A stretch of DNA of 64,000 nucleotides from contig OZ024751.1 in assembly GCA_964016885.1 (NCBI GenBank), forward strand, positions 47,492,001 to 47,556,000, in the 5' to 3' direction. The DNA comes from Eledone cirrhosa (lineage: Eukaryota). The notes under the pieces were generated by a model that did not search any database, was not told where the DNA came from, and saw only the letters and a list, made by a program, of their open reading frames with translations. Positions 451-59,582 of this stretch are shown in pieces (within the stretch, counting starts at the first letter, position 1; every line of letters begins with the position of its first letter). A program made the position numbers and the translations under genes.

Positions 451-1025
451 ATAAAATATTAAACAAATAATGAATAAAACAATGAAACAGTTCCTTATAT
501 TAAACAAAAAAAGTTCATTATTTAACGATCGTTTCTAGGATATATATGTGTTAGAATTGGCATGCACATTCAACAGATCTATGTACAAAATTATACAAAA
601 TTATACAAACTTATACAAACTACCAAGATTAAATATACATACCAAACACACATATACGCCGTCTTCAGAAATAATCATTATTTCTGAAGACGGCGTATAT
701 GTGTGTTTGGTATGTATATTTAATCTTGATAGTTTGTATAATTTTGTATAATTTTGTACATAGATCTGTTGAATGTGCATGCCAATTCTAACACATATAT
801 ATCCTAGAAACGATCGTTAAATAATGAACTTTTTTTGTTTAATATAAGGAACTGTTTCATTGTTTTATTCATTATTTGTTTAATATTTTATCTTGACTCT
901 GTATACCGTTTATCTTTCACCGAAAGTGATTTTTCATTACATCTCTTCTTTCCATGATATCCGGAATACATTGAGTTCTTCATACGGATTGGACACTACC
1001 GTAAACTCTTGGTAGATTTATCTAC
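451..1025. mobile_element. (TA)n-flanked fold-back element (arms 451-675 and 677-891, single-copy tail to about 1025)
   Basis: Near-perfect inverted repeat of about 220 bp with a 1-nt apex at 676; contains an HHR. Confidence 0.85.
675..827 (+). ncRNA. Type I hammerhead motif with a very long stem II (mirror copy 517-675 on -)
   Basis: Stem I tcattattt/aaataatga (9 bp); CTGAAGA 684-690; 116-nt stem II region with about 16 bp of basal pairing; GAAA 807-810; palindromic CGATCG; cleavage triplet GTT. Confidence 0.7.
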
Positions 1026-1434
1026 ATATATATATATATATATATATATATATATATATATATATATATATATATATATATATATATATATATATATATA
1101 TATATATATATATATATATATATATATATATATATATATATATATGTAGGAGGTGAGTTTTATTGTAGTACAATAAAGCAATGCAGATATCGGATAAGTA
1201 GCACTCTACAGTTTGTAGGACTGGAGTATAAATAATATATAAGATCAAAAGATGGTTAAAAGGGTTCCATGTATTTTATTATACGCATTTCAACAACGTC
1301 AAACGCAACTTTGTTAAATGTTCTTAATCCCATTCTAAATCAAGAAACTATTATTCCTATCGTAAATAACATCTCCAATCCAATTCCTTCTATAGATAAC
1401 ACTAGGTCACTTGTTAATAATTCTGTTAATTTCT

Positions 1435-1830
1435 CTAATCGCAATTGTAATTGCCCTGTTAAAAATAAATGTTCTCTCAACAACCATTGTCCTGAAAAAA
1501 ACATAATCTACGAATGTAAAGTTATAACTGACACCAATCCTTTACCTATTTTGGCTCCACTTCTACCTCCTTTAAAGCTCGTCTTTATAATCATCATTCG
1601 TCTTTTAAATACCAACTTAAAAGAACTAACACGGCACTCTCAGAACTCATATGGTCCTTGAAAGACAAAAATATTAACTATAACATCTCTTGGAGGAAGG
1701 TTTGTTCTGCTTCTCCATACTTGAATGGTTCTCTATCCAGGACATGTAATCTTTGTTTATGTGAGGAATTTACCATTATATCTAATTTAGATTCTATAAT
1801 AAATAGACGCACTGACTTGTATCACTTCCC
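1435..1830 (+). pseudogene. Frameshifted GIY-YIG endonuclease C-terminus of a Penelope/Neptune ORF
   Basis: CNCPVKNKCSLNNHCPEKNIIYECKV, then a frameshift near 1540, then TYFGSTSTSFKARLYNHHSSF...TALSELIWSLKDKNINYNISW...CNLCLCEEFTII...IINRRTD. This has the Cys-rich linker, IIY/YFG, the catalytic R/H region and the CNLC..E..N motifs typical of Neptune-clade GIY-YIG domains. Confidence 0.85.
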
Positions 1831-2641
1831 TTTCTTTCTTTTTTTTTTCTTTTTTCTTTTTTTCTTTTTCTTTTAATTTCTAACCTCTAATCTGTACCTT
1901 TTCTTCCTAGATACTTCTCAATTCTCATTTTTAATCACCACAATATATCCTTACCCTTTTAAATACTTTATAATATCACCTTGAAAAATCCTTCGTAAAC
2001 ATAAACATTTTTTTGAAGTTAGATTATTCATCCTCAATTCATTATTTTTTTCTCCCTTTAATGCTCATCTAACTTATACATATTACACTTATTCATCCAC
2101 TCTTCTACTTCTTTTCACAATATATCCTTAATTACATTACTATTGTTATATTTTTATATATTTTTAATAATACATATCAACAATTTCTTTCCATCGCACA
2201 TATTATTAAACCCTTAAATATTATTCTTAATACATATTAACAATTTCTTTTCATCGCACATATTATTAAACCCTTCAATATACAAACCTTAATTTAACAT
2301 TATTCTAGAATTTTTCTCTTCGTTAATTTTCAAATTCTTTTAATTTATTTATTATCTTCCAACGGTTTTTTTAACCTCTCTATGTAAAACAATATATTTT
2401 TCTCAGTTATAAAATCTATCTCTCTCTCTCTATCACCCATCTCTCCTCCTATCTCATCCTTCCTTATTATACTCCTCCCCCTCCATTCTTTAATTTCATC
2501 TCCTCCTCTTTTTCATCCTTTCCACCCCACCCCCCTCAATTTTTTCCCCAATATCACACATCAATCTAAAACTACTTTTCATATGTTGATTTAAAACTGC
2601 ACTATCCACAAGTGTTTTTTAACCTTCATATCATGTCTCCC

Positions 2642-2712
2642 TATTTTATCTGACGAAAACGCAAATGTCATCGCATGATGATATTTGTTTTTGAAATGCG
2701 CATAATAAAATA
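2642..2712 (+). ncRNA. Minimal type I hammerhead in the Penelope 3' repeat (family B)
   Basis: tattttat-CTGACGA-aaacgcaaatgtcatc(gcat)gatgatatttgttttt-GAAA-TGCGCA-TA-ataaaata: 8-bp stem I, about 16-bp stem II, palindromic stem III. Confidence 0.88.
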
Positions 2713-56600: not shown

Positions 56601-56849
56601 GGTCACTTCTAAACATGTCCCTTAGAGTCGTAAATCGCCTGTGATCTCAATCATTACTTTGCCAGGCGGTGCCGCTTTACTGTCAGCGAGGATTCTATAA
56701 ATTTAATATTATTTGTCATCAACACATCGCCTAAAACATGGATATTTTTACAAGAGGAATTTAATCAACTTCCTCACTCTACTGTGTTCTTTCTACATAG
56801 ATGACTCCATTGCTTCTAGCCAAATAATTTTGTGGAATGCACAAAGACA

Positions 56850-57455
56850 ACTCCTCCTCCTGCTCCTGCTCCTGCTCCTCCTCCTCCTCCTCCTCCTACT
56901 ACTACTACTACTACTACTACTACCCCCACCACCACCACCACTACTACTACTACTACTACTACTACTACTACTACTACTACTACTACTACTACTACCAACA
57001 CCACTACTACTATCACCTCCATTACTACCACCAGCACTCCACCAGCACTTCACCACAACCTCCATTCCACCAGCACTTCATCACAACCTCCACTCCACCA
57101 GCACTTCACCACAACCTCCACTCCACCAGCACTTCACCACCACTTCGCCACAACCTCCACTCCACCAGCACTTCATCACAACCTCCACTCCACCAGCACT
57201 TCACCACAACCTCCACTCCACCAGCACTTCACCACCACTTCGCCACAACCTCCACTCCACCAGCACTTCATCACAACCTCCACTCCACCAGCACTTCACC
57301 ACAACCTCCACTCCACCAGCACTTCACCACCACTTCGCCACAACCTCCACTCCACCAGCACTTTATCACAACCTCCACTCCACCAGCACTTCACCACAAC
57401 CTCCACTCCACCAGCACTTCACCACCACTTCGCCACAACCTCCACTCCACCAGCA
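56850..57455. repeat. CCT/CTA microsatellites followed by a 27/27/39-bp composite minisatellite
   Basis: ctccaccagcacttcaccacaacctcca variants in a higher-order pattern of about 93 bp. Confidence 0.85.
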
Positions 57456-58559
57456 CACAAAAAAACTGAAATGTCAATTACCATCGCTAACAAAGCATCA
57501 AAGAGCCACCAAATATCACGAGAACAACACAAAAAGGAAAATTCAATGATTCTACTCAAAATGGCGTTTTAAATAAATATTTGTCGCAATAAGTTAAATT
57601 AAAACGACTTTAGGAATTTTATCTGAAAGAAAAATCGATTGAAAAATGAAAGCCCCCCCCCCCCCCCCCCCTAAAAAAAAATGGAAAGAAATTGAAAGAA
57701 TTATAACACTGAACCAGCAATAAGAACGGTTGTATATTGGCACAGTAGAATGTTCCAGAATAATACTTATTTATATAAAAAATACAGAAGAACGGTGGTA
57801 AAAATTAAGATTGATGTTATTCAAATATATATTCTTAATGAAGAAAGCGAGAAAAACAAATGCCGAGCAAATATTTGGCTTGATTGTTTAAAACAGAAAT
57901 TTAACAAACAGATGATATTTTAAACATATGTCTATTTATTTATCCATCTAACTTACTTTTTATTGTATTCTTATTTCTTATGTATACATGTATGTATTGA
58001 CCTACAACGCTAGATGGAGTCGTAGAGGCAATATCCTGACTTGTGTTGGCGTCATGTCTTGGGCACTTTTATACTGGGTGGAAAGTCGCTTTCTTCGAGA
58101 GAGAGAGAGTGAGAGAGAGAGGGAGAGAGAGAGGGAGAGAGAGAGAGAGAGAGAGAGAGAGAGAGAGAGAGAGAGAGAGAGAGAGAGAGAGAGAGAGAGA
58201 ACGATAGGGAAGAAGTGAGAAAGAAACAGACGAAGAATCGATCTCGATACTCGTATGGTTCTTTATTTATCGATCTCGATGGGTTTTGAATTGTAGAAAA
58301 CTGGAATGGATATCGTAAAACGTTCTATCTGAGGTTTTAACGACTGTGCCTCATGTATTATTATACGCACATCACTCTGCCTGTCTCTGTCGATATATAT
58401 ATATATATATATATATATATATATATATATATATATATATATATATAGTTATGTAGTTATGTAATAAACAACATAAGATAATTATTTCATTTACCTTTCC
58501 TTTGCCTTTCCTACGGAAATACTTCATTTATATATATATATATATATATATATATATAT

Positions 58560-59582
58560 GTAGAAGTTCTATTTAAATTGTTGGGACACAAGCAAATATT
58601 TTTATAACTGATATAAAGCACTCAACAAATTATTGGAGCAAAAATTCAATATATTAACAAATGGAAACTATATTTATAAAACCATATTTATTTCATTATA
58701 CATATTTCAAGGACACTAAGTTAAATTATGGTGTGCTTTCATCAGATAAAATATAATATAGAGCAGTTTTATAAATAAATATTGACATAAATAAATGCGA
58801 CCATTTCTGTTGGAAGCTCCCGGATAGTGGGGTTATAAATTTATTTATACTATTATGTAAATTAGTTTCGGATATTTTTAAATCAGAGTAGATTTAAATA
58901 AGCCGTTGAGTTATGGAGAAAGAGAGAGAGAGAAAAAAAGAGAGAGAAAAAAGAGAGGGAAAAAAGAGAGATAGAAAAAAGAGAAAAAAGTGCAAACTCT
59001 AAGAGGAAAATAAGAAAAGGAGAAAGAGAAGAAAAAAGAAAAGAGAAAGTGAAAGCTCTAAGTGATAGGTTGTTGTATTAGCTTAATATTTAAATATTTA
59101 TTCTTTCACTTCATCTCAAAAGTTAAGCTAATACAACAACCTATCACTTAGAGCTTCCGCTTTCTCTTTTCTTTTTTCTTCTCTTTCTCCTGTTCTTATT
59201 TTCCCCTTAGAGTTTGCTCTTTTTTCTCTTTTTTCTCTTTTTTCTCTTTTTTCTCTTTTTCTATCTCTCTTTTTTCTCGCTCTTTTTTTTTCTCTCTCTC
59301 TCTTTCTCCACAACCCAACGGCTTATTTAAATCTACTCTGATTTAAAAATATCTGAAACTAATTTACATAATAGTATAAATAAATTTATAACCCCACTAT
59401 CCGGGAGCTTCCAACAGAAATGGTCGCATTCTTTAAGGGTATGTCAATATTTATTTATAAAACTGCTCTATATTATATTTTATCTGATGAAAGCACACCA
59501 TAATTTAACTTAGTGTCCTTGAAATATGTATAATGAAATAAATATGGTTTTATAAATATAGTTTCCATTTGTTAATATATTG
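58560..59582. mobile_element. Large (TA)n-flanked fold-back element, family A (arms of about 440 bp)
   Basis: 58647-59086 against 59122-59582, with several substitutions and small indels between the arms. Includes a CT/AG-rich UTR-like segment and the HHRs. Confidence 0.88.
59476..59540 (+). ncRNA. Minimal hammerhead, divergent family A (mirror copy 58689-58753 on -)
   Basis: tattttat-CTGATGA-aagcacac...gtgtcctt-GAAA-TATGTA-TA-atgaaata; stem II carries compensatory changes relative to the 23037 copy. Confidence 0.85.

What the first reader, a model, noticed from the sequence alone, without database searches (positions are those of the whole stretch)
691..59520. Recurring C-pyrimidine mismatch at base pair 4 of stem II in unrelated hammerhead families
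Seen: the fourth stem II pair is C.C at 694/803, in all family A copies (5.0, 23.0, 41.2, 59.5 kb) and at 30.4 kb, and C.T in family B (2.6 and 46.4 kb), while neighbouring pairs are Watson-Crick or G.U. All of these HHRs have a 6-nt stem III segment that is palindromic or nearly so. Inference: a conserved tertiary or protein-contact element that defines a subclass of minimal HHRs. I do not know of a description of it but cannot check the literature.
Basis: partly seen in the sequence, partly recalled or inferred. Interest (0 to 1): 0.7.

Follow-up and report, generated by a model that had tools for sequence, protein, structure and literature searches.

The report
Unpaired cytosine in transposon hammerhead ribozymes
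About 100,000 hammerhead motifs (predicted self-cutting RNAs) at the ends of related jumping genes in this animal genome keep one cytosine unpaired while the base pairs around it swap, and that cytosine is likely a grip for the jumping gene's own protein, which remains untested.

Summary
In detail: every listed hammerhead has C·C or C·U at stem II pair 4. Genome-wide, 103,790 motifs have C·Y there and 462 have C-G, about the neutral decay rate. In a random 1.2 Mb sample called blind to each pair, pair 4 was mismatched in 36 of 44, pairs 2, 3, 5, 6, 7 in 0-3 of 37-38. Neighbouring pairs covary, so the unpaired C10.4 looks selected.

The families are not unrelated: they sit on Hydra-clade Penelope-like elements, and A and B are one protein clade, though the 684-type may be a second origin (AU p 0.042). 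A 6-nt palindromic loop III is not sufficient: CAATTG, CACGTG and CGCGCG families pair normally. None of 50 hammerheads from other organisms' Hydra-type contigs has C·Y. No RNA partner is conserved in stem I, so a protein contact is my best guess; function is untested.

Not found in print in 8 searches; Lünse 2017 was unavailable. This scan noted the same feature twice before, elsewhere in this genome.

The parts
675..827 (+). Type I hammerhead, 684-type; 116-nt stem II; C·C at 694/803; pair 1 C·A; loop III CGATCG
517..675 (-). Inverted twin of the 684 hammerhead; C·C at 658/539
1260..1822 (+). 5'-truncated, frameshifted end of a Hydra-clade PLE ORF (CxCx5C-type linker, GIY-YIG-like endonuclease) that owns the family B hammerhead
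2642..2712 (+). Family B hammerhead; C·T at 2660/2689; loop III TGCGCA; about 830 nt after the endonuclease
4814..4879 (-). Family A hammerhead, inverted twin; C·C at 4861/4837
5011..5076 (+). Family A hammerhead; C·C at 5029/5053; loop III TATATA
22835..22900 (-). Family A hammerhead, inverted twin; C·C at 22882/22858
23037..23102 (+). Family A hammerhead; C·C at 23055/23079; loop III TATGTA
30124..30178 (-). 30.4-kb family hammerhead, inverted twin; C·C at 30163/30144
30412..30466 (+). 30.4-kb family hammerhead; C·C at 30427/30446; 11,530 pattern matches in the genome
41185..41249 (-). Family A hammerhead; C·C at 41231/41208
42028..42094 (-). Family B-type hammerhead with damaged core (GAAT); C·T at 42078/42049
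46215..46286 (-). Family B hammerhead, inverted twin with one extra T; C·T at 46268/46238
46443..46513 (+). Family B hammerhead; C·T at 46461/46490
47010..47082 (-). Decayed hammerhead (core GAGA) with C·C at pair 4; ends approximate
58689..58753 (-). Family A (A2-type) hammerhead, inverted twin; C·C at 58735/58712
59476..59540 (+). Family A (A2-type) hammerhead; C·C at 59494/59517; pairs 2 and 6 differ from other A copies by compensatory changes
50423..50484 (+). Comparison class: long stem II with A-T at pair 4 and 7-nt loop III CCACTGG (twin at 50349 minus)
16472..16510 (+). Comparison class: short stem II, T·T pair 1, C-G pair 4, loop III GTAC (twin at 16413 minus)

Best explanation
These are type I hammerhead motifs at the 3' ends of related Hydra-clade Penelope-like retrotransposons, they keep C10.4 unpaired at stem II pair 4 across diverged families, and this cytosine is likely a recognition mark read by the element's own RT-endonuclease protein. 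Shown: the mismatch, its position, covariation of pairs 2, 3, 5, 6 and 7, the link to Hydra-clade ORFs, and the lack of any amplified family with C-G. Inferred: selection on source elements keeps C10.4 free; stem III (two pairs plus a palindrome) needs a second copy to form an 8-bp helix; the protein binds the mismatch plus the R-Y, Y-R, R-Y pairs beyond it, steadies the three core-proximal pairs that the mismatch weakens, and so ties cleavage to assembly of the element's RNP. Binding and cleavage are both untested.
For: C10.4 is C in 33 of 33 random-sample copies of this class, with partner C (30), T (2) or A (1), never G. Among 22 haplotypes seen at two or more fetched loci, pair 4 is mismatched in 22, while pairs 2, 3, 5, 6, 7 are mismatched in 2, 1, 1, 0, 0 and each occurs as two or three standard pair types. 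C-G copies are 462 of 104,252 (0.44%), scattered over many family backgrounds in the first 100 listed; background C>G in the 30.4-kb family is 4 of 745. So base identity matters, not only weakness. 10.5-10.7 read purine, pyrimidine, purine in 21 of those 22 haplotypes. Stem I differs in length and bulges between families, so no RNA partner is evident. The trait follows the protein lineage: A, A2 and B are one clade, and the 30.4-kb and GAACG families join them on endonuclease fragments (SH-aLRT 89). A PLE hammerhead from Anolis cleaved only when the PLE protein was added (PMC11167929, main text read).
Against: No binding or cleavage data exist for these RNAs. The 684-type protein does not group with A/B (AU p 0.042 against one clade), and its ORF-to-hammerhead link rests on one locus (L048). 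One non-C·Y row (L150, long branch) lies inside the group. In Anolis the protein-binding region was mapped to the first 172 nt of the ORF, not to stem II. Sister Hydra-type families in the same genome work with a perfect stem II. Copies and haplotypes are related, some fetched loci overlap, and the loop III class was drawn after seeing the data.
Confidence: 0.45

Rival explanations
1. The C·Y pair is an RNA-only structural element: it bends or opens stem II where loop 2 normally docks on stem I, and stands in for the loop 1-loop 2 contact.
For: It lies one pair short of where canonical loop 2 begins. In the Schistosoma structure an extrahelical C of loop 1 stacks on stem II opposite L2.C1 (PMC2632901, passages). 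Family Q has a bulged C after pair 4, and D. virilis and Ciona have a bulge at a similar place. Position 1.7 is T in five of the six main C·Y families.
Against: The canonical motif needs an opened 3' A in loop 2; here 11.4 is C or U. Stem I is fully paired through 1.8 in families A, B and 684 and has only 5 pairs in three others, so no partner is conserved. Long perfect stems II occur in 8 of 8 other long-stem copies here and 12 of 12 in other organisms.
Confidence: 0.27
2. The mismatch is a brake: it weakens the three pairs next to the core so that a lone transcript cleaves slowly or not at all.
For: Natural C-G copies fold stem II about 6-7 kcal/mol more stably than C·C copies of the same family (-18.9 against -12.2; -18.2 against -11.8), and pairs 2-3 go from probabilities of 0.01-0.97 to 0.88-1.0.
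Against: Any mismatch would weaken the stem, yet 10.4 is nearly always C. The predicted weakening differs widely between families. The unstable stem III already blocks the monomer (15.1-16.1 probability 0.08 or less).
Confidence: 0.18
3. It is a neutral inherited accident of one founder element.
For: The families are related, so one origin could explain most copies.
Against: The endonucleases of these families are only 32-66% identical, every neighbouring stem position has changed, 11.4 itself has changed (C, T, A) but never to G, and 10.4 has not changed at family level.
Confidence: 0.1

Closest known systems
Hammerheads of Hydra-clade Penelope-like elements (Craig et al. 2021, PMC8557442, File S2)
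   Same: Type I motif near the 3' end of a C-terminal-endonuclease PLE that inserts in (TA)n; no extra base needed after A9; U·U or other weak pair 1 is common; palindromic stem III.
   Different: The 26 Hydra rows of File S2, read by eye, show stem II without a C·Y pair 4 and mostly 7-8-nt loops III. The families here have a 6-nt loop, a 20-126-nt stem II and the fixed mismatch.
PLE minimal hammerheads and variants with a small palindromic helix III (Cervera and de la Peña 2014, PMC4209133)
   Same: PLE-associated, type I, longer helix II, palindromic helix III thought to need a dimer, no recognised loop 1-loop 2 contact.
   Different: Their consensus has an extra base after A9 and a conserved G10.1-C11.1, both absent here. 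None of the 56 representatives of Fig. S3, read by eye, has C·C or C·U at pair 4; one has U·U, one C·A, and D. virilis and Ciona have a bulge nearby.
Canonical type I hammerhead (Schistosoma type) with loop 1-loop 2 docking (Dufour et al. 2009, PMC2632901)
   Same: Same catalytic core; a non-paired C sits at the far end of a short run of stem II pairs.
   Different: Loop 2 is replaced by a continuing helix, the C comes after three pairs, and there is no opened 3' A or conserved loop 1.
Protein-assisted PAc hammerhead of Anolis Poseidon (Frangieh et al. 2024, PMC11167929)
   Same: A PLE hammerhead; gives the precedent that the element's protein is needed for cleavage.
   Different: Another PLE clade; no stem II mismatch is described in the text read, and no contact site on the ribozyme was mapped.

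Membership tests
Type I hammerhead ribozyme | Core CUGANGA, GAAA, U-H cleavage site with stems I, II, III, open at stem I | tested here: met
   stem III is only two pairs in the monomer
Type I hammerhead ribozyme | Self-cleavage | not testable with these tools
   no assay possible
Type I hammerhead ribozyme | Match to an Rfam hammerhead model | tested here: inconclusive
   none among the best 150 of 320 matches shown; microsatellite hits to miRNA models filled the list
Hydra-clade PLE | RT followed by a C-terminal GIY-YIG-type endonuclease | tested here: met
   L105, L111, L123 ORFs; criteria
Hydra-clade PLE | CxCx5C linker; CxxC before the E and CxH after the N | tested here: met
   families B, A2, 684-type, 30.4-kb (CxH seen in B and A2)
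Hydra-clade PLE | RWK motif and DKT in place of DKG | tested here: met
   DKT in A, A2 and 684-type; RWR at the RWK place in L331 and L048; not covered in the family B copies examined
Hydra-clade PLE | Insertion into (TA)n | tested here: met
   a (TA)5+ run begins 93-104 nt after C3 in 6 of 8 window copies, further away in 2
Hydra-clade PLE | Placement with named Hydra elements in an RT tree | not tested
   named references were compared by eye only; trees used unnamed homologues
PLE min-HHR consensus (Cervera 2014) | Extra base after A9 and G10.1-C11.1 | tested here: not met
   pair 1 is G-C in 7 of 33, with no inserted base
PLE hammerheads with palindromic helix III | Palindromic stem/loop III able to pair between two copies | tested here: met
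   8-bp duplex for TATATA, TGCGCA, CGATCG (-3.2 to -10.5 kcal/mol), 6-bp for TATGTA (-2.2); prediction only
Canonical loop 1-loop 2 docking motif (Dufour 2009) | Opened 3' A in loop 2, with 5' U and extrahelical pyrimidine in loop 1 | tested here: not met
   11.4 is C or T in 32 of 33; stem I build differs by family
Non-LTR retrozyme | Short tandem repeats each holding a hammerhead, no ORF | tested here: not met
   copies are dispersed, often as inverted twins, and linked to ORFs

The most novel reading that the evidence does not exclude
A lineage of about 100,000 hammerheads has traded the RNA loop-loop contact for a protein switch: the unpaired C10.4 is a clade-specific handle by which the retrotransposon's own protein recognises and switches on its ribozyme, and it may have arisen twice (A/B group and 684-type).
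Probability: 0.3. Interest if true: 0.72.

Novelty: new variant of a known kind. Interest (0 to 1): 0.45.

Why it matters
Why PLE hammerheads are kept although they cleave poorly in vitro is open, and the one reconstituted case needs protein. A single invariant unpaired base, with natural C-G variants already in the genome, is a precise point at which to test protein contact against RNA contact against brake. It also shows that descriptors demanding a perfect short stem II can miss a very large hammerhead class. Without an assay it remains a lineage-specific detail of a known ribozyme on a known transposon clade.

Tried and rejected
Register slip (A9 pairing with 11.1, C10.4 bulged): perfect in only 4 of 23 haplotypes; not general. 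Pairing of 10.4-10.7 with loop III as an alternative fold: complete in 6 of 23; rejected. A function on the antisense or cDNA strand: the pair reads G·G, G·A or G·T there, which is not one motif (reasoning). Assembly artefact: excluded by copy number; contigs of a public sample showed no variant at 5% or more at 2660 or 2689 while many neighbours varied, but that sample may be the window's own source and is not independent. Naiad origin: rejected, the endonuclease is C-terminal. Rfam scan uninformative. Single-protein scan of prokaryote genomes and alignment scan of viral contigs found no relative. Pattern scan of viral contigs: of 80 loci kept from 120 listed, 1 passed loose stem filters and it looks like chance. 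A DNA search with the 30.4-kb stretch returned nothing because common words are skipped; a pattern worked. No hammerhead was found for family P. L044's downstream hammerhead first seemed to link family S to the 30.4-kb type; other copies showed it belongs to a neighbour. No RNA holder listed. Six loop III words were absent from Craig's supplement (line breaks could hide them). No look-alikes in other scanned genomes. Lünse et al. 2017 and Martick and Scott 2006 were not held.
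Full report
Observation. I listed every CTGANGA core on both strands and built the three stems by script. Six have inverted twins, as is usual for Penelope-like element (PLE) insertions (PMC8557442, passages). Other hammerheads in the window have a normal pair 4. The C·Y pattern occurs 12 times in the window and in none of 100 shuffles.

Unbiased test. I fetched 120 stretches of 10 kb at round coordinates of the 3.0-Gb genome. A caller that ignores pair 4 found 66 hammerheads; five block shuffles gave 0, 1, 3, 0, 0. After dropping 8 same-locus twins, 58 remained: 17 with a short stem II and 41 with 20 nt or more. 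Of the 41, the 33 with loop III YRYRYA or CGATCG were all mismatched at pair 4 (30 C·C, 2 C·T, 1 C·A), against 2 of 132 at pairs 2, 3, 5, 6. The other 8 (CAATTG 4, CACGTG 1, CCACTGG 3) were all paired. That split was drawn after seeing the data, so the fairer figure is the caller made blind to each pair in turn over all 6-nt loops: pair 4 mismatched in 36 of 44; pairs 2, 3, 5, 6, 7 in 2/38, 1/37, 0/37, 1/37, 3/38; pair 1 in 17/43; pair 8 in 11/43. Copies are related, so these counts describe the pattern and are not independent trials.

Genome scale. With loop III TRYRYA and a stem II of 20-50 nt, C at 10.4 with C or T at 11.4 matches 103,790 times (reversed control 7); with G at 11.4, 462 times (control 11). 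The first 100 listed C-G matches, read by eye, are mostly single changes on many family backgrounds, a few shared by inverted twins. 0.44% is close to the background C>G rate in 26 of the 30 fetched copies of the 30.4-kb family (4 of 745; with G>C, 8 of 1,337). No amplified family has a paired C-G. This count leaves out the 684-type (loop CGATCG, 116-nt stem) and does not count copies with another base at 10.4.

Covariation. Among 22 haplotypes of pairs 1-7 seen at two or more fetched loci (some loci overlap), pair 4 was C·C 18, C·T 2, C·A 1, T·C 1. Pair 3 occurs as G-C, A-T and T-A; pair 6 as T-A and C-G; pairs 2, 5, 7 as A-T, G·T and G-C. Six main families and several singletons carry it. 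The kept element is C10.4, unpaired, followed by R-Y, Y-R, R-Y pairs.

What carries them. The endonuclease end at 1260-1822 has at least 150 relatives at 89-100% identity, and 22 of 30 fetched loci have the family B hammerhead downstream on the same strand. The ORFs have the features given for the Hydra clade (section read): RT then endonuclease, CxCx5C linker, DKT, RWR at the RWK place, CxxC and CxH, (TA)n targets. Pfam gave no hit for the two window frames; named Hydra proteins were compared by eye only. A-type hammerheads follow their own ORFs, the 30.4-kb type follows an endonuclease in 3 loci, the GAACG type follows short remnants in 2, and the 684-type link rests on L048 alone.

Related or unrelated. 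In an RT+endonuclease tree of 22 rows, A, A2 and B form one clade (97/99) and the 684-type stands apart in an unresolved fork; forcing all C·Y rows together is marginally rejected (AU p 0.042). A quick tree with short fragments puts the 30.4-kb and GAACG families with A/B (SH-aLRT 89), along with one long-branch non-C·Y row. Rows were projected on one query, which can bias the tree. Endonuclease identity between C·Y families is 32-66%. So the trait is mostly inherited in a deep sub-lineage, and a second origin or losses cannot be told apart. Sister families differ: R has a long stem II with A-T at pair 4, Q a bulged C after pair 4, S a CAGAAGA core.

Other organisms. Using an alignment of 24 proteins (23 of the 33 hits) I fetched 78 metagenome and 11 MAG contigs with Hydra-type ORFs. 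Fifty distinct hammerheads from 41 of the 89 loci had pair 4 paired in 47; the rest were G·A, A·A and C·A; none was C·C or C·T; all 12 with long stems were paired, and only 2 had a 6-nt loop. These ORFs lie outside the genome's own group, so close relatives were not sampled.

Mechanism. The monomer's stem III is barely predicted (probability 0.08 or less), while the palindrome can pair between two copies, in line with the dimer model (PMC4209133, results and discussion read). The mismatch costs about 6-7 kcal/mol against natural C-G copies. A pure brake would not need C. A canonical docking motif needs an opened A and a matching loop 1 (PMC2632901, passages), and neither is here; stem I differs between families. 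Two alternative folds were tested and are not general. A base-specific mark on an otherwise covarying helix that follows the protein lineage fits protein recognition best, and a PLE hammerhead that cleaves only with its protein is on record. I put this at 0.45, an RNA contact at 0.27, a brake at 0.18, neutrality at 0.10. That the base is under selection I put at about 0.9.

Literature. Eight searches found no description of this mismatch. Read: PMC4209133 (parts 1-2 of 4; supplement parts 1-2 of 3), PMC8557442 (passages, section 11, supplement parts 1-2 of 59 and two searches), PMC11167929 (parts 1-2 of 4), bioRxiv 2026.07.22.740005 (parts 1-2 of 5; its supplements are closed), and passages of PMC6765202, PMC3088659, PMC7229834, PMC2632901, PMC6962438. 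Lünse et al. 2017 (cited) was not held and could already show the position. Two earlier notes of this scan describe the same feature in other pieces of this genome; I read them after my tests. The host looks like a cephalopod to me from recall of such genomes; this was not tested.

Verdict. A real, selected, lineage-limited variant of a known ribozyme on a known transposon clade, with an open and easily tested function. New variant of a known kind; interest 0.45.

Noticed in passing
window 3890-3960, minus strand (core at 3953); L326, L328, L290, L292, L295, L044: A Hydra-clade family (S) ends in a hammerhead-like motif with core CAGAAGA (U4 replaced by A) in all 11 copies printed, a short stem II and a long monomer-type stem III. 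Either a fixed core variant or a dead ribozyme in a young family.
   Followed up: partly
L320, L322, L323 (family Q), 2.0-2.5 kb after the ORF: Hammerhead with a 5-nt loop III and an unpaired base on the 3' arm just after pair 4; a second kind of irregularity at nearly the same place.
   Followed up: no
L317, L319, L409-L411 (family P): Young Hydra-clade family with ORFs up to 878 aa and no hammerhead of its own found downstream by my scans.
   Followed up: partly
L423, L424, L425, L426: Both arms of inverted twins carry the same rare C-G change, so the change preceded the duplication or the arms were homogenised.
   Followed up: no
window 691-806 and L037, L045, L048, L285: Very long stems II of 79-126 nt in the 684-type and CAATTG families; the 684 hairpin folds with z -5.3.
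   Followed up: no
window 48323-48352 +: A textbook minimal PLE hammerhead with the extra base after A9 and G10.1-C11.1.
   Followed up: no
window 33481-33957, minus strand: Exon of a rhodopsin-family GPCR (Pfam 7tm_1, E 5e-22); the elements may lie in or near its introns.
   Followed up: no
window 7555-8046 +, 11665-11985 -, about 13700-14150 -: 3' ends of non-LTR retrotransposon-like ORFs with a restriction-like endonuclease look (judged by eye, recalled).
   Followed up: no
window about 36300-37900: Tandem array with a 66-nt period, many units identical.
   Followed up: no
L259-L269: Animal-type PLE ORFs, most with hammerheads, inside bacterial MAG records, most likely host DNA contamination.
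   Followed up: no
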